The notes: a model not told the origin generated them from the sequence alone. Shown: positions 46,991 through 59,436, counted from the stretch's first letter. The stretch: 64,000 bases of DNA from an uncultured Rickettsiales bacterium (GCA_964445765.1 CAYULD010000003.1:147480-211479); one strand, 5' to 3'. Numbers and translations: made by a program.

Positions 46991-48072
46991 AACTCATTTA
47001 ATTTTTTGATAATAAATTCAACTTCACTTTTTTTCATTATCGGTGAAATTGGAAGGCTAAGAACTTCTTTATGAATTTTTTCAGTAATAGGTAATTTCTT
47101 TTTGCTATATTCTTTTAAGGCCTCTTGCTTATGTGGTGGAATAGGGTAATGAATAAGTGTTTCAATGGAATTCTCAGCCAAATAATTTTTTAATTTATCT
47201 CTATTTTTGCATCTGATTACATATAAATGCCATACGCAAGAGCCATCATTTACAAAAAGTGGCTTGACAATTTTAGGGTTATTTATCCCATCTTCATACA
47301 TTTTAGCTATAGAAATTCTTGCTTTATTATCAGAATCTAAATGTTTTAATTTTGTAATAAGAACGCCAGCCTGAAATTCATCTAAACGAGAATTGAAACC
47401 CTTATAAATATTTTCATATTTAATATGTGAGCCATAATTTCTAAGAGCTTTTAACTTATCATATAGATTTTTGCTATTGGTTGTTATTGCACCGCCATCA
47501 CCCAATGCACCTAAGTTTTTTCCGGGGTAAAAACTAAAACCAGAAGCAATTCCAAAAGAGCCAGATTTTTTGCCGTTATAAATTGCGCCGTGAGATTGAG
47601 CAGAATCTTCAATTAAATATAAATTATGTTTCTTGGCAATTTCTGAAATTTTATCAATATCAGAAACCAAACCATATAAATGAACTGCTAATATTGCCTT
47701 AGTTTTTTTAGTGATTTTTTTTTCAATTAAATCTGGATTTAGATTATATGTTTCAATTTTAGGCTCAACAAAAACAGGCTTAGCACCATTTGCAACAACC
47801 GCAAGAATTGTTGCAATATAAGTATTTGCTGGCACAATAACTTCATCACCTTTGCCAATTCCAAGGGCTTTAAGAATTAAAATTAGGGCATCAAGCCCAT
47901 TTGCAACCCCAATAGCATATTTAGTGCCACAGAAATTTGCAAAATCTTTTTCAAATTGCTCAACATTTTTGCCAAGAATATACCAACCAGAATCTAGTAT
48001 TTTAGCGGAAGTTCTTAAAAATTCTTTTTTGTAGCGATCATTTATTTTTTTGAGATCTAAAAATTTAATCAT
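46987..48072 (-). CDS. DegT/DnrJ/EryC1/StrS-family sugar aminotransferase (dTDP-3-amino-3,6-dideoxyhexose type, FdtB/QdtB-like)
   Basis: 361 aa, PLP-lysine context [17 protein letters not shown], sits next to an FdtA-like isomerase. Confidence 0.85.
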
Positions 48073-48085
48073 AATTCTAATTTTT

Positions 48086-48496
48086 CTAGAGAGATTTTTT
48101 ATATTCGCAAAATTTTTTATAATCTCTTATATAATCATTTTCATCATATATTTCAGAGGCTAAAACAAGGCAGGTGCAACCTGATGTAAACTCTGATAGA
48201 TCCCGCCAATAGCCTTTTGGAACAAAAACCCCTTCATAAGGATATTTTAAGTTAAAATTAAAAACATTCCCTAAGCCATCATCTAATTTTAAGTTAAAAC
48301 TCCCTGATAAAGAAATAAAAAATTGCGATAATTCTTTATGAGCGTGTGCCCCACGAAATTCACCCGAAGGAACATCATAAATATAGTAAACCCTTTTAAT
48401 ATCAAAACCAACCTCACTTGCTTCAAGAAATGAAATACTCCCTGAATTAGATGAAACCTTGTTTATTTTGTGTAATTTAGGAATTAAACTGTTCAT
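48086..48496 (-). CDS. FdtA/QdtA (WxcM C-terminal)-like dTDP-4-dehydro-6-deoxyglucose 3,4-ketoisomerase
   Basis: 136 aa cupin. GSISFLEA...[22 protein letters not shown] is the typical FdtA string. Confidence 0.8.
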
Positions 48497-49020
48497 TAAA
48501 TAAATCTTTGATATTTTGGCAAAATTTTTTCAAAATCTTCTTTTGTATAAATGTAATAAAAATTTAATTCATCTTCATCGTAGATTTTAGAACCCATTCT
48601 TTGATGAAAATCATTAACACTATAATTATCTTTTCTAACATCAAACTTAGTTAGTTCAAAACCTTTTTCAAAAAAAGCAAATTTATAAATTAATAAAGCG
48701 GATTCAATAGCACAAAATTTGGGTGCATTAGGGATTGTAATCCAGCTTCCCCAACAAAATTCGCTATTAATAATATTATAAATTCTAACTGTTCCAAGTC
48801 TCTCTTGGTTTTTATTTTCAATAATAAAATAAAAATCTTTATTGTTAATTTTATAATTTTTTATGAATTGGATTTGTTTTTCAAGATCATTTTCAATTTT
48901 TGAAATATGCTTAGATTTGCTTTCATTAAGCCGCAATTGTAAAATAAATTCAGCATCCTCTAATTCAATATCTCTAAGATTTATATTTTTTCCTGTAATA
49001 AATTTATTTGCTTTTTTCAT
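48496..49020 (-). CDS. GNAT-family N-acetyltransferase
   Basis: 174 aa with the typical RimL-like N-terminus (INLRDIELEDAEFILQLR). It is the first gene of the three-gene minus-strand amino-sugar operon. Confidence 0.7.
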   Translation of the reverse strand: MKKANKFITGKNINLRDIELEDAEFILQLRLNESKSKHISKIENDLEKQIQFIKNYKINNKDFYFIIENKNQERLGTVRIYNIINSEFCWGSWITIPNAPKFCAIESALLIYKFAFFEKGFELTKFDVRKDNYSVNDFHQRMGSKIYDEDELNFYYIYTKEDFEKILPKYQRFI

Positions 49021-49102
49021 TGAGACTAATACCTTGACAACACTGATATTTTTTTAATACTTGTTAAAAAAAATTAATTCAACTTTAATTAGTAATTATG
49101 TG

Positions 49103-50560
49103 ATGAAAACTATTAATGTTTTATATATAACAGAGGTTTATATTCAAAGTGATTATTGGGGGCCGTTTCATAGGGGTTTTTCAAACTATTTTAATTCTAT
49201 TAATAGTGTAAATTTTACAGGGCTAAATATTAGGTTGCACAAAACTGAAGATATAATTAATAAAATTGAAAAACACTCACCTGATTTTGTTTTTTTTGTT
49301 AATTATGTATCTAATTCAAATGATTATTGTGAATTTATTAAAAAAAGATTTCCTAAATGTAAGTTAGCTCTGTGGTTTATTGATTCTTTTGAGAGGTTTA
49401 AATATGCATCCTTTGAAGCATTAGATGTTTTTGATAAGGTGTTTTTATCTGGAAATGATGAATATATAAATAGGCTAGTTCAATATTTCCCATATCTTGA
49501 TAAGAAGGTTAAATTTCTTCCATTTGCCACTGATTTAAGCAAATTTAATGATAATAACTTAAAAAAAGATATTGATGTTTCATTTGTTGGAACATTGTTT
49601 TACAATTATGAGTTCAAGAGGCTTATTTCAGATAATGTTAGCTTTGATAATCATTACGAAATTTTTAATAATCTTCTAAACAAGCATAGGAATAAATATC
49701 AATTTGGTTTAATTGATAGCTTAAAAAACTCAGGTTTTCAATTTTCAGAAAATGAAAATATGAGATTATTAGAGTCATCTAATGTCCTTCAAACTATATT
49801 TGATGATCAGCTTTCTAAAGAAAAAAGATTAAGGTATTTATCAAGGTTATATGAGTTTAATTTATCTATTCACGGTGAGCCAGTCTCAGAATGGATATTT
49901 AGCATTTGTGATGTTGATTCAAGGTTACTAAGCAAATTTAAGGCTAATGAACCTATAGGTGATAGTGAAGCCCTTTCAAAATTATATAATCGCTCAAAAA
50001 TTTCATTAAATATTCAACATCATCAAGCCTATAATTTTGGTTTAGCTATGAGGATATTTGATATTATGGCTTGTAAATCTTTACTTATAACTGAGCATAC
50101 TTCAATCAAGCCTCTAAATGATTTGGGATTTGAAGAAAATTTAGATTTTGTATCATTTAGTAATGAAAATGATTTATATAATAAGGTTAAAATTTATCTG
50201 AATGATGATAGTAAAAGAAACCAAATTACAGAATCAGCTTATGAAAAAGTAGTAAACTCTCACACCTTTGATAAAAAAATTGCATATATTCTTAAAGAAA
50301 TAGGTTTTGATGAGGCTTCTAAAGAGGCAAATAAGGTATCATATAAAAATTTAATTGATTTCAAAACTCCATCAATTAATTTTAATATTAAAAGTAAAAC
50401 AATTTTTGATAAAATTAAAAATTTCTTTTTCACAAAGCAAGAAATTAAGCCAGTTAAATATAAACTCTTTAACTTAAAACCTATATTTCAATTCAAATTC
50501 AAAATATTTGGTAAATATAAATTTTCTGTATTTGTTGAAGATATTGTTAATAATAAATAA
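49103..50560 (+). CDS. CgeB-like glycosyltransferase (Glyco_trans_1_2-type C-terminal domain)
   Basis: C-terminal RSKISLNIQHHQ...GLAMRIFDIMACKSLLITEH...ESAYEKVVNSHTF resembles the CgeB/DUF3880 family. ATG at 49103 is preferred over TTG at 49061. Confidence 0.6.
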   Translation: MKTINVLYITEVYIQSDYWGPFHRGFSNYFNSINSVNFTGLNIRLHKTEDIINKIEKHSPDFVFFVNYVSNSNDYCEFIKKRFPKCKLALWFIDSFERFKYASFEALDVFDKVFLSGNDEYINRLVQYFPYLDKKVKFLPFATDLSKFNDNNLKKDIDVSFVGTLFYNYEFKRLISDNVSFDNHYEIFNNLLNKHRNKYQFGLIDSLKNSGFQFSENENMRLLESSNVLQTIFDDQLSKEKRLRYLSRLYEFNLSIHGEPVSEWIFSICDVDSRLLSKFKANEPIGDSEALSKLYNRSKISLNIQHHQAYNFGLAMRIFDIMACKSLLITEHTSIKPLNDLGFEENLDFVSFSNENDLYNKVKIYLNDDSKRNQITESAYEKVVNSHTFDKKIAYILKEIGFDEASKEANKVSYKNLIDFKTPSINFNIKSKTIFDKIKNFFFTKQEIKPVKYKLFNLKPIFQFKFKIFGKYKFSVFVEDIVNNK

Positions 50561-50580
50561 AATATTTTCAGTAACTAATA

Positions 50581-51999
50581 ATGTTGGTTAATAATAAAAT
50601 TATTATTGTTGATCTTGATAATACATTTATCAAAACAGATCTTCTATATGAAGCATTTGTTCAGTTAATAAAGTTCAGGTTTTGGCTGGTTTTTTTAATG
50701 CCAATATGGTTGATTAGAGGTAAATTATATTTTAAGAAAAAAATTTTTGAAGGTTACTCTTTAAGAGAAGATTTACTTCCATATAATTATGATGTCATAA
50801 ATTACATCAAAGATAAATGGAATTCAGGACATAAAATATATTTATACTCTGCTTCACCTGAAGAATTTGTAAAAAAAATTGCTAATAAATTTGAGTTTTT
50901 TTCTGGTTTTAGGGGCTCCACAAATATTAATCTTAAATCAATTAATAAGCTAAAAGCAATAATAGAAGATTTTGGAGAAAATTTTGATTATATTGGAGAT
51001 TCTTTAGATGATATAGTTATATGGAATAAAGCAATAAATAAAATTGCGGTTAATCCTAATAAAAAAATATTTAAGTTTCTTAGCAAAGATAAATTTGAAA
51101 AAATATTTACTTACGGCAATAATTTGAAATCTCTAATTAAATTAATTAGGGTTCATCAGTGGAGTAAAAATTTTTTAGTATTTACGCCTTACATTATTAG
51201 GGGAGATTTTAGTGATATAAGCCTATTAATTAATTTTATAATTATCTTTTTTTGTATTTCGTTAATCTCAAGCGGAACATATATAATCAATGACTTGTTT
51301 GATTTGAATAGTGATAGGCTTCACCCATCCAAAAAAAATAGGCCATTAGCAAATGGGGATACTAAAATAATTTATGCTATTTATTTAGCTCCTATTCTAA
51401 TTATTTCAGGGTTATTAATTTCTTACAATTTATCAATAAATGCTTTTTTATCATTAATTTCATATATAATAATTACCTTATCTTACTCTTTATATTTTAA
51501 GAAATTGGCAATTTTAGATGTAATATTAATCGCAGGATTATTTACATTAAGGGTAATTGCTGGTTCATTATTAATAGAGGAACCAATTTCTCATTGGCTT
51601 TTAGCTTTCACATTTACAATCTTTTTTAGCTTAGCGATTTCTAAAAGAGTTTCAGATATTAAGTTGATAATTGATAGTAGCGATAAAAAAAATTTAGATG
51701 GCAGAGGCTATAAAATTGAAGATGAAATTTTTTTGACAATATCAGGTATATCATCAGGTTTTGCTTCAATATTAATATTTTCTTTATATCTTGTTTTAGA
51801 ACAATTTAAGAGAGATATTTTTTCAAATAATGAATTTTTATGGTTTGTATGCATGCTTATAATGTTTTGGATGCTTAGAATTTGGTTCAAAACATGCAGG
51901 GGAGAAATTAAATGTGATCCCGTTATATTTGCCTTAAAAGATAAGACATCTATAATTATGGGTTTATTTTCATTAATATTTATATATTTTGCTTGGTGA
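50581..51999 (+). CDS. Fusion protein: N-terminal HAD-superfamily phosphatase domain + UbiA-family polyprenyl-phosphate phosphoribosyltransferase (Rv3806c-like)
   Basis: HAD motif I VDLDNTF, motif II YSAS and motif IV IGDSLDD lie in residues 1 to about 185. The UbiA Asp-rich motif NDLFDLNSDRLHPSKKNRPLANGD follows, with about 8 TM helices. Confidence 0.8.
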   Translation: MLVNNKIIIVDLDNTFIKTDLLYEAFVQLIKFRFWLVFLMPIWLIRGKLYFKKKIFEGYSLREDLLPYNYDVINYIKDKWNSGHKIYLYSASPEEFVKKIANKFEFFSGFRGSTNINLKSINKLKAIIEDFGENFDYIGDSLDDIVIWNKAINKIAVNPNKKIFKFLSKDKFEKIFTYGNNLKSLIKLIRVHQWSKNFLVFTPYIIRGDFSDISLLINFIIIFFCISLISSGTYIINDLFDLNSDRLHPSKKNRPLANGDTKIIYAIYLAPILIISGLLISYNLSINAFLSLISYIIITLSYSLYFKKLAILDVILIAGLFTLRVIAGSLLIEEPISHWLLAFTFTIFFSLAISKRVSDIKLIIDSSDKKNLDGRGYKIEDEIFLTISGISSGFASILIFSLYLVLEQFKRDIFSNNEFLWFVCMLIMFWMLRIWFKTCRGEIKCDPVIFALKDKTSIIMGLFSLIFIYFAW

Positions 52000-53303
52000 T
52001 GGAAGAATCTAAAGAATATCTATCTTGGGGAAGAATTTTAAGATTCAAGCATAAAGTTATTGATAACTTGCAAGAAATTAATTTTGCTAACAATGATTTT
52101 ATATTAGCCTATGGCAATGGAAGATCTTACGGCGATTCTTGCTTAAATGAAGGTAAAACTCTTTTTGATACTCGTAAATTAAAGAATTTTATATCATTTG
52201 ATGAATCGCAAGGAATTTTAGAATGTCAGTCTGGGGTTCAATTTTATGAAATTTTAGAATTATTAAAATCTAGAGCTAGAAAAGGTCTTAAAAAGTTCTT
52301 TATACCTGTTACACCCGGAACAAAATTTATTACTATAGGCGGTGCAATAGCTAATGATGTTCACGGCAAAAATCATTACAAAATGGGTTCATTTGGAAAT
52401 CACCTTATTTCTTTCAAGCTATTAAGAAGTGATAATCAAATTATAGAATGTAGCAAAGAGGAAAATTCAGAATTGTTTTTTTCTACTATTGGTGGCTTGG
52501 GTTTAACCGGCATAATTTTATCTGCTAAAATAAGGCTTATGGAAGCAAGTTCTTTTTACATAGAAGTAGAAAAAAAGATATTTTATAATTTAGATGAATT
52601 TTATAAAATTGATAATGATTCTAAAGATAAATATTTATACACAGTTGCTTGGTTAGATAGTTTTAGCAATGGCAGGGGCGTTTATTATAGAGGAAACCAC
52701 TCTAATATAGAAAAAATTCCTGAATATAAAAAGCCTATAACATTTTTTTCAAAATTTAATGTTAAAATCTTTAACCAATTCTTTATTAAAATTTTTAATA
52801 TTATTTACTTTAGAATAGCTTGTTTAACAAAAGATAAAAAATATTATTCTGATTACGATAGTTTTTTTTACCCACTAGATAAAATTAAAAATTGGAATAT
52901 TTTTTATGGTAAAAATGGCTTTTATCAATTCCAGTTCCTAATCCCTTATAAAAATAGTTCTTCTTTAATTGAAATTCTAAGTATTATTAAAAAAAGTAAT
53001 TCCGCCTCTTTTTTATCAGTTCTAAAAACCTTTGGAGGCATTCACTCACGGGGGTATTTGTCATTCCCTAGCGAAGGAATTACTCTCGCATTAGATTTTG
53101 TTAATCAAGGTGAAAAAACAAAAAATCTATTATTGGAGTTAGAAAAGATAGTTATAGAAAATAATGGTAAAATATATCCAGCTAAGGATATGCTTATGTC
53201 AAAGAATAGTTTTTATAATTCTTATAATAAGATTAATTTATTTAAGAACTATATTGATAGTAAATTTTCATCTAGCTTTTGGAGGCGTATAAATAATGTC
53301 TAA
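51999..53303 (+). CDS. FAD-dependent oxidoreductase, DprE1-like (polyprenyl-phospho-ribose 2'-oxidase)
   Basis: GNGRSYGDS and PVTPGTKFITIGGAIANDVHGKNHY match the DprE1 strings GRSYGD and PGT..VT.GGAIA.D.HGKNH. The ATG overlaps the upstream TGA (TGATG). Confidence 0.75.
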   Translation: MEESKEYLSWGRILRFKHKVIDNLQEINFANNDFILAYGNGRSYGDSCLNEGKTLFDTRKLKNFISFDESQGILECQSGVQFYEILELLKSRARKGLKKFFIPVTPGTKFITIGGAIANDVHGKNHYKMGSFGNHLISFKLLRSDNQIIECSKEENSELFFSTIGGLGLTGIILSAKIRLMEASSFYIEVEKKIFYNLDEFYKIDNDSKDKYLYTVAWLDSFSNGRGVYYRGNHSNIEKIPEYKKPITFFSKFNVKIFNQFFIKIFNIIYFRIACLTKDKKYYSDYDSFFYPLDKIKNWNIFYGKNGFYQFQFLIPYKNSSSLIEILSIIKKSNSASFLSVLKTFGGIHSRGYLSFPSEGITLALDFVNQGEKTKNLLLELEKIVIENNGKIYPAKDMLMSKNSFYNSYNKINLFKNYIDSKFSSSFWRRINNV

Positions 53304-54039
53304 AAATATTTTAATTTTTGGTGCAAACTCAGATATAATGCAAGAATTTGCTAGAATTAATGCTCTTGAAGAGAGTAATAATTTTTTTCTTATAGGTAGA
53401 GATATAGAAAGAATTAAAATTCTTAAAGATGATTTAATTGTTAGGGGTGCAAAATCAGTTGATTTTTTAAGTGCAGATTTATCTGAAATTAAGAATATAG
53501 AAAATATTATGTCTGAAGTTTCTAAAAAGTTTTCTATAATAGATGTTTGTATTATTGCTCAAGGCTCTCTAACTAACCAAATTAAAGCAGAAAATGATAT
53601 AGATTATTTTTTCTATGAGGCTAGGCTTAATAGCCTTTCTTATATGTGTATTACACTAGAATTAATAAAAGTTTTTGGAGTAGATAAAATTAAAAATATT
53701 GTTTTTATAACATCGGTTGCTGGGGATAGAATAAGGCAATCTAACTATATTTATGGCACATTCAAATCTTCCTTATCTAGTTTTTTATCAGGTTTAAGGC
53801 ATAAATATTATAATAAAGAAATTAATTTTATTGAAATAAAGCCCGGTTTTACAAAAACAAAGATGACTAAAGAATTCAAAAAGAACCTTTTATGGTCTGA
53901 GCCTTCAGTTATAGCTAATGACATAAAAAAGGCTATTTTACATAATAAAAAAGTTGTTTATTCGCCTTTTTGGTGGAAGTTTATAATGTTAATTATTAAG
54001 TTGTTGCCAACATTTATATTCAATAAACTTAAGATATGA
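53296..54039 (+). CDS. Short-chain dehydrogenase/reductase, DprE2-like
   Basis: ILIFGANSDIM nucleotide-binding turn and YGTFK (YxxxK) catalytic motif. It overlaps the upstream gene by 8 nt. Confidence 0.7.
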   Translation: MSKNILIFGANSDIMQEFARINALEESNNFFLIGRDIERIKILKDDLIVRGAKSVDFLSADLSEIKNIENIMSEVSKKFSIIDVCIIAQGSLTNQIKAENDIDYFFYEARLNSLSYMCITLELIKVFGVDKIKNIVFITSVAGDRIRQSNYIYGTFKSSLSSFLSGLRHKYYNKEINFIEIKPGFTKTKMTKEFKKNLLWSEPSVIANDIKKAILHNKKVVYSPFWWKFIMLIIKLLPTFIFNKLKI

Positions 54040-54437
54040 TAAAATCTTTACTAAATAATAATTTTATTAAATTTCTTATTTTAGGCGGTGTTGCGGCATT
54101 AATAAACTTTGTATCAAGAATTTTTATAAATTTTTTTTTAAGCTACAGATTTTCAATAATCTTATCATATTTTTTAGGAATGATTGTCGCTTTCTATTTG
54201 TTCAGGAAGTTCATTTTTATTAAATCTCAAAAGCCAATTAAAAAACAAATTTATGGTTTTGTTACAGTTAACATTCTTGGTATAATTCAAGTTTGGTGCG
54301 TAAGTGTTTTTCTAGAAGAGTTTTTTTTTCCGTTGATTAGCTTTAATTTTTATTCTAAGGAGTTTGCTCACGCAATAGGGATATCGGTTCCTGCGATAAC
54401 AAGCTATTTTGGTCATAAATACCTAAGTTTTAGTTAA
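54036..54437 (+). CDS. GtrA-family membrane protein
   Basis: 133 aa with four TM helices. The N-terminal FIKFLILGGVAALINF is typical of GtrA. ATGA overlap with the upstream gene. Confidence 0.8.
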   Translation: MIKSLLNNNFIKFLILGGVAALINFVSRIFINFFLSYRFSIILSYFLGMIVAFYLFRKFIFIKSQKPIKKQIYGFVTVNILGIIQVWCVSVFLEEFFFPLISFNFYSKEFAHAIGISVPAITSYFGHKYLSFS

Positions 54438-54439
54438 AT

Positions 54440-55666
54440 ATGCAAGAATTTACATATAAAAATTTTGCTCATAAAGTTTTAATATCTTTAAATAAATTTT
54501 ATCCGCTCATTCTCGTTTTAGCTATTTTATATTTTTTGCAGAATTTCTATCTTAATATTACCCCCTCAAAATGTGAAGGGCTTGGTGATTGTGTAAAATA
54601 TTCTCAAATGGCAGAAAATTTTGGTAATAATAATCAGGTGAAGATTGAAACCCCCTTTAATTTAAGAATTTTAGCACCTTATTTATCTAGCTTAATTTCT
54701 AAAGATACTCAGATTGCTTTTAAGATTTTGAATTCTGTTTCAATTTTAGTATTCTGTTTTTTTTCCTTTTTTACCCTTAAAAAATTGGAAATTAATAATT
54801 ATTATTCAGCAATTTTTTTCTCTTGGTTTTTTCTTCACCCTTTAGGTTTTCAATATTACTTTGTAGTGCCTGTAATGGTTGATATGCTATATTATGCAGC
54901 ACTTAGTATAATTATTTATTTAGCTGTAACTAAAGAAAAGTTTTTAATATGGTTAGCGTTCCTCACTTTTGCTTTTATAAAAGAGACAATTATTTTTATA
55001 GCCCTAATTTACTATTTATGTCTAATAGTTAATGAATTAAAAGAAAAAAATGTAAAAAAAATATCTTTCAACTTTTTTAGCCTAGTATTCTTTTTTCTGA
55101 TTTATAATCTAATTAAAGAAAATATTGTTCTTAATAAATTTCCTAACCTGCAAGAGTGGGAAGTTACGCCATTAACCACTGTAAAATGGTTTTTTAATGA
55201 GCTTTTGAAAGATTATAACAGGCTTATAATTTGGTTTTGCTCGTTTTTTTGTGCGGTAGGCTTTTATTTTTTGTCTATTTTTAATTTTAGTATAAAAAAT
55301 TTATTTATTAATTTATATGAAAATATAACGCTTCAAGGTTTCTTATTTTTAATTTCCTGTGCTATGATTTTATTCGGAATTTTAGCTGGATCAGATATGA
55401 CAAGAATAATCTTTAATGGTTCACAATTTATTTTATTATTTAGTTTTTTAGTTATCAAGAAAAATTCAAAACTAAATATTTCTGATTATTTAATTCCCTT
55501 ATTTAGCTTTTTACTATTATTTTCGTATAGTAAATTTTTTCCAAGCAACTTAGAATATAAATATTATTACGAAAAAGAAATTACTCCATATTTTAGCTTA
55601 GGATTTATTTTTTTAATTACTTCTATTGGTCTAATTTTTTTGTTAAAAAAGTACAAAGCTGAATGA
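54440..55666 (+). CDS. Polytopic integral membrane protein; candidate GT-C-type glycosyltransferase or polymerase
   Basis: 408 aa with about 10-12 hydrophobic segments and a first loop of about 45 residues containing acidic residues. No family recognised by eye. The function is inferred only from position. Confidence 0.35.
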   Translation: MQEFTYKNFAHKVLISLNKFYPLILVLAILYFLQNFYLNITPSKCEGLGDCVKYSQMAENFGNNNQVKIETPFNLRILAPYLSSLISKDTQIAFKILNSVSILVFCFFSFFTLKKLEINNYYSAIFFSWFFLHPLGFQYYFVVPVMVDMLYYAALSIIIYLAVTKEKFLIWLAFLTFAFIKETIIFIALIYYLCLIVNELKEKNVKKISFNFFSLVFFFLIYNLIKENIVLNKFPNLQEWEVTPLTTVKWFFNELLKDYNRLIIWFCSFFCAVGFYFLSIFNFSIKNLFINLYENITLQGFLFLISCAMILFGILAGSDMTRIIFNGSQFILLFSFLVIKKNSKLNISDYLIPLFSFLLLFSYSKFFPSNLEYKYYYEKEITPYFSLGFIFLITSIGLIFLLKKYKAE

Positions 55667-56520
55667 ATTATTTTACTATATTAACAAGGGGTAGAACAGG
55701 CTCAACTGCTGTTATTGATTATCTCAACAGGGTTCCTAATGTTGCGTGCTATCAAGAATTATTCAAATATAGCCCCGGATTAAAACAAGAAATTAAAGAT
55801 ATTATAAATTCTGAGCTAGGTGTTTCAGGAAAAGTAAATTTTGAAACAAAAGTTATAGATAAACAACCCTTAGATTATGATTTTTACTCAAACTATTTTG
55901 GCAAAGATATTACTAAATATCTAGATTATCTAATGGAGTATTCTAATAGAAAAAAATTGTTTTTTGTAAAAAATAATAAAAATTTTATAGGTTTTAAGTT
56001 ATTATTTAATCATTTAGAGCATTTTTCTAACTCAGAAAATTTATTGCAAATTTTAGTTAATAATGGATGTAAATTTTTAATTCTTAGAAGAAAAAACCCT
56101 CTTAAAGAAGCATTATCTGGTGTGATTGCTAGTAATAGGGGAACATTTAACATTAATAAAAAAACTGAAAAAGAAAAATTTAATAATTTTAAGAAAAATA
56201 TATTTAATAAAAAAATAAAAATATCTTCTAAACAAGTTGCTGATGAAGTAGCTTACATTGAATATAATTATCCAATATTTGAAAAGATTTTATTGGATTC
56301 ATCAGCGTCATATAAATATATATATTATGAAGATCTTCTATATAATAAAGATAAATTTATAAGAGATGTATGCCATTTTATTGGTTGTGATAGCAAGTTT
56401 AATCTATTTGAAAACAACTATGTAAAAATAACCCCTGATGATTTATCTAATATAATAGAAAATTATGATGAGTTTGTTAGAGAAATCAGGGAAGTTCATC
56501 AAATTGAATATGAATTATAA
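55663..56520 (+). CDS. NodH/Stf0-like P-loop sulfotransferase
   Basis: The N-terminus FTILTRGRTGSTAVIDYLNRVPNVACYQELF parallels the 5'-PSB loop region of NodH-type sulfotransferases (RTG-T/S ... HPNV ... EL). ATGA overlap with the upstream gene. Confidence 0.55.
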   Translation: MNYFTILTRGRTGSTAVIDYLNRVPNVACYQELFKYSPGLKQEIKDIINSELGVSGKVNFETKVIDKQPLDYDFYSNYFGKDITKYLDYLMEYSNRKKLFFVKNNKNFIGFKLLFNHLEHFSNSENLLQILVNNGCKFLILRRKNPLKEALSGVIASNRGTFNINKKTEKEKFNNFKKNIFNKKIKISSKQVADEVAYIEYNYPIFEKILLDSSASYKYIYYEDLLYNKDKFIRDVCHFIGCDSKFNLFENNYVKITPDDLSNIIENYDEFVREIREVHQIEYEL

Positions 56521-57519
56521 AGTATTTTTTGAAAATATAGGTATATTCAAAAAATAAAATCTATTTTTCCCACCTTTCACAACACACTTAAATAAACTGA
56601 TTCCGAAGAATTTTACAACTGTTTTTTGGAAGGTTTTTTTTATATGCAAAATTTTTATACCAAAAATTGAAATTATTTTTTCATAATCTTTATATTTTTT
56701 CCATAAATCTTCTTTACCAAATTCAATCGCTTTTTGGTGCTCAAGCAAATAAGTTTGTTTTTTTGCTTCATTCATCCAGTCAAAATTATTAGAGGTGCTG
56801 GAATAATGTTTTCTATAATAAGTTATTGCATTATTATTAAACTTAAAATTACCAATTTTAGCAAGCTGTAAAACTAAAAACCAATCTTCTAATTTTGCGA
56901 TTTCAGAATAGCCCCCAACTGCATCAAAAGCAGATTTTTTTATTAAAAAACCATTTGGAATATAATTCCCTTTTAATAGAGATTCATATGAGCCAAACTG
57001 AGGGGAGTTAAAATTTACATCCGGCCTTTTTGATAAAATTAACTCATCAAAACTAAATATTTTTGCGGAATTTTTATCATAAGTTTTTTGCTCTTTTTCT
57101 TTTAGATAAAAAATTTTATTATTTTCATCTACGAAATAATTTTTGCCAACCGCTAAAACAAGATTTTCATCTTCTTCAAAAGTTTTAACTAAAATTTCTA
57201 TGGTATTATTTTCAATAAAATCATCAGAGGCAATTGGGAATAAATAGAAGCCATTAATATATTGTTTTGCCTTACATAAACTTTTTTGTAAGCCAAGATT
57301 TGCTTCATTTTTAATGAATTTTACGAAGATATTTTTCTCAGTAAAATTTGGTAAGAAATTTTCAATTTCTAAAGCGGTATTATCAGTTGAAAAATCATCA
57401 ATAATAATAAGCTCTAAATTTTTATAAGTTTGATTTAATATAGATTGCAAACAAGTTTTAATATAATTCTGATGATTATATGATGGTATTAAAACGCTAA
57501 CAAGTTTGCTTTCAAGCAT
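56515..57519 (-). CDS. Family 2 glycosyltransferase
   Basis: VSVLIPSYNHQNYIKTCLQSILNQTYKNLELIIIDDFSTDNT. Confidence 0.85.
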   Translation of the reverse strand: MLESKLVSVLIPSYNHQNYIKTCLQSILNQTYKNLELIIIDDFSTDNTALEIENFLPNFTEKNIFVKFIKNEANLGLQKSLCKAKQYINGFYLFPIASDDFIENNTIEILVKTFEEDENLVLAVGKNYFVDENNKIFYLKEKEQKTYDKNSAKIFSFDELILSKRPDVNFNSPQFGSYESLLKGNYIPNGFLIKKSAFDAVGGYSEIAKLEDWFLVLQLAKIGNFKFNNNAITYYRKHYSSTSNNFDWMNEAKKQTYLLEHQKAIEFGKEDLWKKYKDYEKIISIFGIKILHIKKTFQKTVVKFFGISLFKCVVKGGKNRFYFLNIPIFSKNTL

Positions 57520-57543
57520 AGTAAATAATATTTGAAAGCCTAT

Positions 57544-59436
57544 TTAAGCGACTTTTCTTTCTTTTTCTAGTTTTTTTAGATAAACCATAATAGCCGCAGT
57601 TGCAGCAGGTGTTATGCCCGGTATTCTGCCAGCAGCACCTAGTGTAGCAGGGCGAATACGATTTAATTTTTCTCTCACCTCATTTGATAAACTATCAACT
57701 TCAAAAAAGTTAATTTCAGTTGGAATTTTAACTGATTCATCTTTACGAAATTGCTTTATTTCTGCCTCTTGCCTTTCTAAATAGCCGGTATAAAGGGCTT
57801 GGATTTCAATTTGTTCAATTACATCTTTTGAAAAACCAGAAAGTGAATTTGCATAAATATTTTTAAGAATTTCAAAAGTAACATTTGGCAAAGAGAGTAA
57901 TTGAATTAAATTTCTGCGAACGCCATCTTGATTAATTTTTATACCAAGTTTTTCAACTTCAACTGGGGTTAGTTGAATTGCCTCCATCTCAGATTTTAAC
58001 TTGTTTAAGTTATTTAGTTTTTGGCTAAAAATTTGCGTTCTTTTTGCCCCAGCAAAATTTCGCTCAATCGCTTTTGGCGTTAGTCTTAAATCAGCATTAT
58101 CAGCCCTCATAATAAGGCGATATTCCGCACGAGAAGTGAACATTCTATAAGGCTCAGAAGTGCCAAGCGTGATTAAATCATCAATTAAAACCCCAATATA
58201 GGCTTCACTTCTATCAAGTGTGAATTCTTCCCTTTTTAGAGCTTTGAAGCCAGCATTTAAGCCAGCAATAAGCCCTTGTGCACCGGCTTCTTCATAGCCT
58301 GTAGTGCCGTTAATTTGCCCTGCTAAAAATAAGCCATTTATTTTCTTAGTTTCAAGCGTGTTTTTCAGCTCTCTTGGGTCAATATAATCATATTCAATCG
58401 CATAGCCATATTGGGTTATTACACAATTTTCCAAGCCTTTGATTGAATGGACATAGGCATCTTGCACATCACGAGGCAGAGAAGTTGAAATACCATTTGG
58501 ATAAACTAAATCTGAATCAAGCCCTTCTGGTTCAAGAAAAATTTGGTGGCGTTCTTTATCACGAAAACGATTTATTTTATCTTCAATAGATGGGCAATAT
58601 CTTGGCCCTACGCCTTTTATTTCACCTGAATACATTGCTGATTTATGAATATTATCTGCAATTATTTGATGGGTTTTTTCATTGGTGTAAGTTATTGAGC
58701 AATGAATTTGCGGAACTTCAACCTTATCAGTTAAATATGAAAATGGATTTGGAATAGCATCACCAATTTGAGGCTCTAAAACGGAATAATCAATTGATGA
58801 TTTCAAAATTCTAGGCGGGGTGCCAGTTTTTAATCTACCAAGTTGAAAGCCTATTTTTTCAAGAGTTTCTGATAGTTTTATAGATGGCTTTTCGGCTTTT
58901 TTATCTTCACCATAACGCCCTGCTGGGGTTTTTTCATCACCAATGTGAATTAAGCCTCGCAAGAAAGTTCCAGTTGTTAAAACCACTGAATCACACTCAA
59001 ATTTTGAGCCATTTTCTGTAATTACTGCTTTAACTTTTTCATTTTCAATTTCAATATCATCAACGCCATCTGCAAATACATCAAGATTTTCATAATTGAG
59101 AATAACTTGTTGCATTGCTTGTTTGTAGAGTTTTCTATCCGCCTGTGCGCGAGGGCCCCATACCGCTGGGCCTTTAGATGCATTGAGTGTTTTATAGTGA
59201 ATACCTGCTTTATCAGTAACTTCCGCCATCACGCCGCCAAGTGCATCAATTTCTTTAACTAAAGTTCCTTTAGCAACGCCACCAATAGCTGGGTTACAGC
59301 TCATCTGCCCTATAGTTTCAATCTTATGAGTAATAAGTAAGGTTTTTGCCCCTGTCCGTGCGGAAGCAGTTGCGGCTTCACAGCCAGCATGCCCCCCACC
59401 AATAACCACAACATCATATTTATTTTTATAGTTCAT
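57544..59436 (-). CDS. mnmG: tRNA uridine 5-carboxymethylaminomethyl modification enzyme
   Basis: [18 protein letters not shown] motif and a full-length 630 aa GidA layout. Confidence 0.97.

What the first reader, a model, noticed from the sequence alone, without database searches (positions are those of the whole stretch)
50581..51140. HAD phosphatase fused to the UbiA phosphoribosyltransferase: a candidate for the 5'-dephosphorylation step
In the mycobacterial pathway the product of Rv3806c (polyprenyl-phospho-5-phosphoribose) must be dephosphorylated before DprE1/DprE2 act. That step is attributed to a separate PAP2-type phosphatase (Rv3807c). No PAP2 gene is present in this cluster. Instead the first 185 or so residues of the UbiA protein form a complete HAD domain (DLDNT, S, GDSLDD). 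This looks like a Rosetta-stone fusion in which a non-homologous HAD phosphatase takes over the dephosphorylation step.
Basis: inference. Interest (0 to 1): 0.6.

Follow-up and report, generated by a model that had tools for sequence, protein, structure and literature searches.

The report
HAD phosphatase fused to phosphoribosyltransferase
The gene does encode a phosphatase domain fused to the membrane enzyme that loads ribose-5-phosphate onto a lipid carrier, but this fusion is common, has its own curated family, and its phosphatase role was shown by experiment in Citrobacter in 2024, so it is an ordinary member of a known kind.

Summary
Observation confirmed. ORF 50581-51999 (+, 472 aa) has an N-terminal HAD domain (about residues 6-177). 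All four catalytic motifs are present: D11-x-D13-x-T15, S90, K123 and G139-D140-x3-D144. A short helix joins it to a nine-helix UbiA-type polyprenyl-phosphate 5-phosphoribosyltransferase. DprE1-like, DprE2-like and GtrA-like genes and a 408 aa membrane protein follow. The window has no PAP2 gene. The genome's only PAP2 lies on another contig.

Interpretation supported but not new. The protein matches NCBIfam NF006088 over its full length (484 bits, cut-off 351), and that model covers both domains. The fusion occurs in 47 of 401 sampled genomes of the same phylum and on 81 plasmid records. The HAD profile finds 3105 clusters at E<=1e-30 in the 1.84-billion-protein library. In 17 of 20 fetched loci a DprE1 homologue sits next to the fusion. 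None of the 20 has a PAP2 gene within 290 kb.

Kelly et al. 2024 (PMC11127046) showed that the N-terminal HAD domain of Citrobacter youngae ORF15 removes the 5'-phosphate. They also listed DprE1/E2-containing versions for arabinofuranose.

This scan has met the same architecture in other genomes, for example e1-1131326 and e1-4016608.

Verdict: a divergent member (at most 44% identity) of a known kind; low interest.

The parts
50581..51999 (+). Whole gene: HAD phosphoribose-phosphatase domain fused to a polyprenyl-phosphate 5-phosphoribosyltransferase (472 aa).
   Evidence: ORF. NF006088 match over residues 6-471, 484 bits against a cut-off of 351. AF2 pLDDT 92.4.
50596..51111 (+). HAD domain, residues about 6-177: Rossmann-like core plus helical C1-type cap (helices 21-32, 34-45, 48-56).
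   Evidence: AF2 models. Foldseek hits to HAD phosphatases. Profile of 34 N-terminal domains hits PDB HADs weakly, E 0.005-0.08.
50611..50625 (+). HAD motif I, D11-L-D13-N-T15 (nucleophile and acid/base Asp).
   Evidence: D11 and D13 invariant and T15 at least 90% conserved in 34 homologues. Matches the loop I Asp (D18) mutated in C. youngae ORF15; the correspondence is inferred.
50848..50850 (+). HAD motif II, S90 at the end of strand 85-93.
   Evidence: The column is S or T in all 34 sequences.
50947..50949 (+). HAD motif III, K123.
   Evidence: Invariant, together with N117.
50995..51012 (+). HAD motif IV, G139-D140-S-L-D-D144.
   Evidence: G139 and D144 invariant; position 140 is D or N.
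51148..51996 (+). UbiA-fold phosphoribosyltransferase domain, residues 190-472, nine helices.
   Evidence: phmmer against Mtb DPPRS 8j8j, E 1.5e-24. Foldseek 8j8j_A, TM by target 0.83. Pfam UbiA E 2.5e-19.
51289..51315 (+). Active-site motif N237-D238-x2-D241-x3-D245 in the loop after helix 2. R356 and E359 (51646-51657) lie further on.
   Evidence: N237, D238, D241, D245 and R356 invariant, E359 at least 90%. They equal ORF15 N247, D248, D251, D255, R366 and E369 at a constant offset of 10.
51993..53303 (+). DprE1-like FAD oxidase (436 aa), overlaps the end of the fusion gene.
   Evidence: Pfam FAD_binding_4. NF053785 E 9e-91, but 305 bits against a cut-off of 500. A homologue sits next to the fusion in 17 of 20 loci.
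53296..54039 (+). DprE2-like short-chain reductase (247 aa).
   Evidence: adh_short. NF053786 E 3e-34, 119 bits against a cut-off of 250. Adjacent in 16 of 20 loci.
54036..54437 (+). GtrA-family small membrane protein, candidate flippase of the lipid-linked pentose.
   Evidence: PF04138 E 4.5e-10. A homologue lies within 10 kb of the fusion in 6 of 20 loci.
54440..55666 (+). 408 aa polytopic membrane protein, candidate GT-C type pentofuranosyltransferase (a lead only).
   Evidence: No Pfam or NCBIfam family. Atlas neighbours are unnamed clusters, a few carrying GT87, PMT or PMT_2 on 11-24% of members.

Best explanation
The gene encodes a two-domain enzyme that makes polyprenyl-phosphate-beta-D-ribofuranose on the cytoplasmic face of the inner membrane.

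[quoted passage not shown] The N-terminal HAD domain sits on the same side of the membrane. It removes the 5'-phosphate through an aspartyl-phosphate intermediate on D11, with D13 as acid/base and Mg2+ held by D140 and D144.

The DprE1-like oxidase and DprE2-like reductase encoded next then invert C2 to give polyprenyl-P-arabinofuranose. The GtrA-like protein flips this donor, and a membrane glycosyltransferase adds the sugar to a surface glycan; the 408 aa neighbour is the candidate.

Shown here: the fold, the conserved catalytic residues, the topology, family membership and gene neighbourhood. Shown in the literature for a homologous architecture: both enzyme activities. Inferred: the activity of this protein, the identity of the lipid, the arabinose end product and the acceptor.
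For: 1. Full-length match to NF006088, which models both domains: 484 bits, cut-off 351.
2. HAD fold at pLDDT 93.7, with all 50 listed Foldseek hits in the HAD superfamily.
3. D11, D13, K123, G139 and D144 invariant and S/T90 conserved in 34 homologues of 30-43% identity. This argues for a catalytically active domain.
4. The transferase domain matches Mtb DPPRS: 8j8j E 1.5e-24, TM 0.83. It keeps N237, D238, D241, D245, R356 and E359, the residues mutated in ORF15.
5. Same-side topology: two helices lie between the HAD domain and the active-site loop, and K+R is 14 against 2.
6. Experiment on the same architecture: ORF15 makes farnesyl-P-Ribf, and D18A accumulates farnesyl-P-Rib-5-P (PMC11127046).
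7. A DprE1 homologue is adjacent in 17 of 20 fusion loci and DprE2 in 16 of 20. The same holds in a metagenomic relative outside the phylum sample.
8. No PAP2 within 290 kb in 20 of 20 fusion genomes. Two of them have no PAP2 at all and none has DUF212.
9. Complementary cases with an unfused transferase. G115 has a separate HAD gene in the DprE1-DprE2 operon. G095 has a DUF212 'divergent PAP2' gene directly downstream. P. aeruginosa PA7 has an Rv3807c homologue next door.
Against: No activity data exist for this protein.

The HAD domain of this copy is below the Pfam and TIGRFAM HAD cut-offs.

The ORF15 D18A mutant kept some product in vitro and in vivo. So the HAD domain is not strictly required in that host, and other phosphatases can substitute in part.

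The genome does hold one PAP2 gene elsewhere.

The solved PRP domain of the Thermobacillus composti ribofuranosyltransferase was not among the 50 best structural matches. A specific kinship with that PRP group is therefore not shown.

I could not align ORF15 itself. The residue correspondence rests on published numbering.

The DprE1 and DprE2 homologues score under the NCBIfam equivalog cut-offs.
Confidence: 0.85

Rival explanations
1. The HAD domain is not the pathway phosphatase. It acts on another phosphoester, or it is a structural or regulatory module. The 5'-phosphate is then removed by a housekeeping phosphatase such as the genome's single PAP2 enzyme.
For: ORF15 D18A still gave some dephosphorylated product and some ribosylated O antigen. 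One PAP2 gene exists on contig C1. The HAD domain here scores under the Pfam cut-off.
Against: The catalytic residues are invariant across distant homologues. The fusion partner and gene order are conserved. Two fusion-bearing genomes have no PAP2 at all and none has DUF212. D18A does accumulate the 5-phosphate intermediate. The lone PAP2 here looks like a lipid-A phosphatase and is not linked to the locus.
Confidence: 0.08
2. The HAD domain is the pathway phosphatase but acts at another step: after the 2'-epimerisation, on polyprenyl-P-5-phospho-arabinofuranose.
For: Nothing found here fixes the order of steps. The fusion only shows closeness to the transferase. Three of 20 fusion loci lack DprE1 and DprE2, which neither supports nor excludes this.
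Against: ORF15 alone, with no epimerase, releases dephosphorylated farnesyl-P-Ribf. So the direct transferase product is a substrate. Fusions without any epimerase nearby exist.
Confidence: 0.04
3. The locus delivers ribofuranose or another pentose, not arabinofuranose, because the DprE1/DprE2-like pair does a different redox job.
For: Both proteins fall under the NCBIfam equivalog cut-offs: 305 against 500 bits and 119 against 250 bits. The reductase scores higher on a generic SDR model, NF005489.
Against: DprE1 is still the best family by far (E 9e-91). The pair is conserved right next to the fusion in 16-17 of 20 loci. Published systems with Araf glycans carry DprE1/E2 homologues.
Confidence: 0.1

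Closest known systems
Citrobacter youngae O1 ORF15 (PRP-PPPRS), part of the three-component pentofuranose side-chain system (Kelly et al. 2024, PMC11127046)
   Same: N-terminal HAD phosphoribose phosphatase fused to a C-terminal nine-helix UbiA-type polyprenyl-phosphate phosphoribosyltransferase. The same active-site residues are present at a constant offset of 10. The setting is a cytoplasmic two-step synthesis of polyprenyl-P-ribofuranose for glycosylation outside the cytoplasm.
   Different: ORF15 works with a small ArnE/F-like flippase (called MATE family in the paper) and the GT136 enzyme. It has no epimerase in serotype O1 and an SDR epimerase in O2. Here the partners are DprE1/DprE2 homologues, a GtrA-family protein and an unclassified 408 aa membrane protein. 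I could not make a direct sequence comparison, as the ORF15 sequence was not on hand.
Mycobacterium tuberculosis decaprenyl-phosphoarabinose pathway: Rv3806c, Rv3807c, DprE1, DprE2, Rv3789
   Same: The transferase is homologous (8j8j E 1.5e-24, TM 0.83). So are the DprE1/DprE2 pair and the GtrA-type protein. The chemical logic is the same.
   Different: Rv3806c has no HAD domain, and the phosphatase is the separate PAP2-type Rv3807c. The lipid is decaprenyl phosphate. The window protein scores under the actinobacterial DPPRS equivalog cut-offs: 143 against 234 bits.
Pseudomonas aeruginosa PA7/Pa5196 D-arabinofuranose cluster PsPA7_6245-6251 (pilin glycosylation)
   Same: A Gram-negative version of the pathway with Rv3806c, DprE1 and DprE2 homologues.
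   Different: There the transferase is unfused and an Rv3807c homologue (6245) sits beside it. Here a fused HAD domain takes that place.
gPRT-PRP ribofuranosyltransferases (Kelly et al. 2022, as cited in PMC11127046 and PMC11194591)
   Same: A PRPP-dependent phosphoribosyltransferase is coupled to a HAD-family phosphoribose phosphatase that uses a loop I Asp nucleophile.
   Different: Those enzymes are soluble and transfer ribose directly to a glycan. Their transferase domain is unrelated to UbiA. The solved T. composti structure was not among the best 50 fold matches of the window's HAD domain.

Membership tests
NCBIfam NF006088 (PRK08238, 'UbiA family prenyltransferase', 482 positions covering both domains) | Whole-protein score over the curated cut-off, with a match across both domains. 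| tested here: met
   484.1 bits against a cut-off of 351; residues 6-471 on model positions 12-479. The N-terminal 200 aa alone give 172.7 bits on positions 12-210.
HAD superfamily phosphatase | Four catalytic motifs: DxDx(T/V), S/T, K/R and (G/S)Dx3-4(D/E). | tested here: met
   D11-L-D13-N-T15, S90, K123 and G139-D140-S-L-D-D144, conserved across 34 homologues.
HAD superfamily phosphatase | Rossmann-like HAD fold with a cap. | tested here: met
   AF2 pLDDT 93.7. Foldseek gives 152 PDB hits at E<=0.001, and the 50 listed are all HAD-superfamily proteins (1f5s E 4e-7; 3fvv TMq 0.68).
HAD superfamily phosphatase | Pfam PF12710 or PF00702 gathering score. | tested here: not met
   12.7 and 12.2 bits against cut-offs of 27 and 26.4. 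Most homologues do carry PF12710. This copy is divergent and AT-biased.
Polyprenyl-phosphate 5-phosphoribosyltransferase (DPPRS/PPPRS branch of UbiA) | UbiA fold with NDxxDxxxD in cytoplasmic loop II and R...E in loop IV. | tested here: met
   N237, D238, D241, D245, R356 and E359. Nine helices in the model. 8j8j is the best fold match, TM 0.83.
Actinobacterial decaprenyl-phosphate phosphoribosyltransferase equivalogs (NF008977, NF008978, NF008976) | Score over the curated cut-off. | tested here: not met
   142.8 against 234, 135.2 against 207 and 108.6 against 474 bits. The protein is a homologue, not a member of those equivalogs.
PRP-PPPRS fusion of Kelly et al. 2024 | N-terminal HAD domain with a loop I Asp joined to a C-terminal PPPRS in one polypeptide, both on the cytoplasmic side. 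| tested here: met
   Domain order and linker. Two helices lie between the HAD domain and loop II, and K+R is 14 against 2.
PRP-PPPRS fusion of Kelly et al. 2024 | Makes polyprenyl-P-Ribf from PRPP, and the Asp mutant accumulates the 5-phosphate intermediate. | not testable with these tools
   Needs a membrane assay; published only for ORF15.
PRP-PPPRS fusion of Kelly et al. 2024 | Direct sequence homology to ORF15 (AWU66546.1) over both domains. | not tested
Only the published residue numbers could be compared.
Three-component pentofuranose glycosylation system | PPPRS plus a small flippase plus a GT-C transferase in one locus. | tested here: inconclusive
   PPPRS is present. The flippase candidate is GtrA-family rather than the ArnE/F-like type. 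The 408 aa protein has no family, and the Atlas gives only GT-C leads.
DprE1/DprE2 epimerase pair | NCBIfam equivalog scores for NF053785 and NF053786. | tested here: not met
   305.2 against 500 and 118.8 against 250 bits. The pair is homologous, and its position next to the fusion is conserved.

The most novel reading that the evidence does not exclude
The HAD cap of this family may be adapted to a lipid-linked substrate. Helix 34-45 is as hydrophobic as a membrane helix (mean Kyte-Doolittle value 2.39). It could dip into the membrane surface, so that the ribose-5-phosphate head group passes straight from the transferase site to the phosphatase site without leaving the enzyme. That would make this a channelling enzyme rather than two activities that merely share a polypeptide. 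I could not test this, because the model coordinates were not open to measurement.
Probability: 0.3. Interest if true: 0.3.

Novelty: new member of a known kind. Interest (0 to 1): 0.12.

Why it matters
It matters little beyond annotation. The gene should be named as a bifunctional polyprenyl-phosphate 5-phosphoribosyltransferase and phosphoribose 5'-phosphatase, rather than 'UbiA family prenyltransferase'. The locus should be read as a lipid-linked arabinofuranose donor module inside a low-GC surface-glycan island.

The survey made here adds a small general point. In the genomes sampled, the phosphatase step of this pathway is filled in one of three ways: a fused HAD domain, a separate HAD gene, or a PAP2 or divergent-PAP2 neighbour. 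This is a clear case of non-orthologous displacement. It could guide the search for the missing phosphatase in loci that have none of the three.

Tried and rejected
- The search for related loci with the 34-sequence alignment failed, because no stretch was conserved enough. I used the genome search with NF006088 instead.
- A regular-expression scan for the PAP2 signature recovered even the positive control only in part. I replaced it with HMM searches.
- Pfam and TIGRFAM HAD models do not reach their cut-offs on this copy. The HAD call rests on motifs, the fold and NF006088.
- The profile of the N-terminal domains against PDB sequences gave only weak HAD hits, E 0.005 and worse.
- I looked for the solved T. 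composti PRP domain among structural matches. It is not in the best 50.
- Stand-alone relatives of the HAD domain (G063, G208, G293) lie in housekeeping surroundings and say nothing about function.
- In several unfused PPPRS loci (G172, G056, G220, G024, G090) I found neither a HAD like the window's within 10 kb nor a PAP2 nearby. The N-terminal 200 aa of the long G172 frame has no Pfam hit.
- I could not fetch ORF15 for a direct alignment.
- No complex prediction was run, since the two domains are one chain.

Full report
THE OBSERVATION

The ORF at 50581-51999 (+) gives a 472 aa protein with no stop.

Pfam sees only the UbiA domain at significance (residues 217-358, E 2.5e-19). On the N-terminal 200 residues the Pfam HAD models score under their cut-offs: PF12710 gives 12.7 bits against 27.

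NCBIfam settles it. The protein matches NF006088 (PRK08238) over residues 6-471, on model positions 12-479 of 482. The score is 484 bits against a cut-off of 351. The first 200 residues alone give 173 bits on model positions 12-210. So a curated family model already covers both domains.

An AlphaFold2 model from 34 homologues is confident (pLDDT 92.4, pTM 0.90). It shows a Rossmann-like core with a helical cap (residues 6-177), a linker helix (181-189) and nine membrane helices. The domain modelled alone has pLDDT 93.7. It gives 152 Foldseek hits in the PDB at E<=0.001. The 50 listed are all HAD-superfamily proteins, led by phosphoserine phosphatases.

D11, D13, K123, G139 and D144 are invariant in 34 homologues of 30-43% identity. 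T15 is nearly invariant. Position 90 is always S or T.

THE TRANSFERASE DOMAIN

Residues 180-462 align with M. tuberculosis decaprenyl-phosphate phosphoribosyltransferase (8j8j, E 1.5e-24). That structure is also the best fold match (TM 0.83 by target).

N237, D238, D241, D245 and R356 are invariant, and E359 is nearly so.

TOPOLOGY

Two helices (191-207 and 213-240) lie between the HAD domain and the NDxxDxxxD loop, so both are on the same side of the membrane. Loops on that side hold 14 Lys+Arg and the opposite loops hold 2. By the positive-inside rule the HAD side is the cytoplasm, where PRPP is found. There is no signal peptide.

SURROUNDINGS

The gene overlaps a DprE1-like FAD oxidase (51993-53303; NF053785 E 9e-91). 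Then come a DprE2-like reductase (53296-54039), a GtrA-family protein (54036-54437) and a 408 aa membrane protein with no family (54440-55666). A weak sulfotransferase match follows, and a GT2 lies on the other strand. A glycosyltransferase precedes the gene.

This stretch has 24-26% G+C against 32-35% around it.

No cluster gene is a PAP2. The genome (1.69 Mb, 99% complete) has one PAP2 gene, on another contig, closest to lipid-A phosphatases. It has no DUF212 gene.

HOW WIDESPREAD

- The word-indexed search found 208 relatives among the candidates scored. Nearly all were 470-500 aa, most with precomputed HAD plus UbiA hits, from Bacteroidota, Ignavibacteriota, Deltaproteobacteria, Planctomycetota and others. 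The best identity was 44%.
- In a sample of 401 genomes of the window's own phylum, 51 pass the NF006088 cut-off. Of these, 47 match the full length.
- tblastn finds the full-length protein on 81 plasmid records of Rhizobium, Azospirillum, Vibrio and others.
- A profile of the HAD domain alone finds 3105 clusters at E<=1e-30 among 1.84 billion representatives. Of the best 150, 67 are full-length fusions. At least 31 of the 52 intermediate-length ones carry the start of the UbiA domain, so they are probably truncated fusions.

GENE NEIGHBOURHOOD ELSEWHERE

I fetched 20 fusion loci from the phylum sample. A DprE1 homologue lies directly beside the fusion in 17, and a DprE2 homologue in 16. A metagenomic relative of 42% identity shows the same three genes.

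Other relatives have no epimerase. There the fusion sits beside a GT-C gene (PMT family), or beside an EamA-type transporter plus a large hypothetical protein. This is the arrangement of the published ribofuranose system.

In none of the 20 fusion genomes is a PAP2 gene on the same contig within 290 kb. Two genomes have no PAP2 match at all (completeness 100% and 93%). None has DUF212.

Where the transferase is unfused, the phosphatase slot can be filled in other ways:
- G115: a separate HAD gene (PF12710, E 5e-36; hhalign probability 96.6 to the window's family) lies in the operon DprE1-DprE2-HAD-unknown-UbiA.
- G095: the only DUF212 'divergent PAP2' gene over the cut-off among the 31 genomes searched lies directly after the unfused transferase.
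- P. aeruginosa PA7: an Rv3807c homologue sits beside the unfused transferase.

Several unfused loci showed neither, so the pattern is not complete.

WHAT IS KNOWN

Kelly et al. 2024 (PMC11127046) characterised Citrobacter youngae O1 ORF15, which has an N-terminal HAD 'phosphoribose phosphatase' domain and a C-terminal polyprenyl-phosphate phosphoribosyltransferase.
- Membranes made farnesyl-P-ribofuranose from PRPP.
- The D18A mutant in HAD loop I accumulated farnesyl-P-ribose-5-P, although some product remained.
- Mutants of N247, D248, D251 and D255 lost activity. These residues, with R366 and E369, equal the window's N237, D238, D241, D245, R356 and E359 at a constant offset of 10.
- The paper states that Rv3807c is unrelated to these HAD domains. 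It also states that candidate systems for arabinofuranose-bearing glycans carry DprE1/E2 homologues.

This scan has also met the architecture in other genomes. I found the paper before reading those notes, and they did not change my reading.

VERDICT

The finding is an ordinary, rather divergent member of a known kind. The activity of this protein, the lipid carrier, the arabinose end product and the acceptor glycan remain inferences.

Noticed in passing
window 54440-55666 (+): A 408 aa polytopic membrane protein with no Pfam or NCBIfam family follows the GtrA gene. Its ESM Atlas neighbours are unnamed clusters, a few carrying GT87, PMT or PMT_2 on 11-24% of members. A GT-C type transferase is therefore only a lead.
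   Followed up: partly
window 48000-58000: The glycan block has 24-26% G+C against 32-35% in the flanks. The one genome sampled from the same family lacks the fusion gene, and the best database identity is 44%. Together this suggests a horizontally acquired island.
   Followed up: partly
L060 7786-8397 (G115) and L061 10488-10979 (G095): Beside unfused phosphoribosyltransferases the phosphatase slot is filled by a separate HAD gene (G115) or by a DUF212 'divergent PAP2' gene (G095). The latter is the only DUF212 match over the cut-off in the 31 genomes searched.
   Followed up: partly
L055 9498-10919 (-) (G172); same genus G056: The unfused transferase lies in an open frame of about 470 aa. 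Its first 200 residues have no Pfam match and do not match the HAD part of NF006088. This could be a spurious upstream extension in a high-GC genome or an undescribed N-terminal domain.
   Followed up: partly
L052 9692-10240 (G063); L053 9725-10354; L054 9611-10276: Stand-alone HAD proteins match the HAD half of NF006088, and the G063 copy is 38% identical to the window's domain. They sit among housekeeping genes (in G063 between an ABC-F ATPase and uvrC), with no transferase within 10 kb. Their function is unknown.
   Followed up: partly
L066 8971-12232 (Vibrio alfacsensis plasmid NZ_AP024168.1): The HAD-UbiA fusion is followed by a small EamA-family transporter and a 486 aa hypothetical protein, inside an XrtA/PEP-CTERM exopolysaccharide locus on a plasmid. 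It looks like a ribofuranose-type three-component system without epimerases.
   Followed up: no
window 55663-56520 (+): The gene overlapping the end of the 408 aa membrane protein gene matches sulfotransferase families only below their cut-offs: Sulfotransfer_3 gives 24.5 bits against 27.
   Followed up: no
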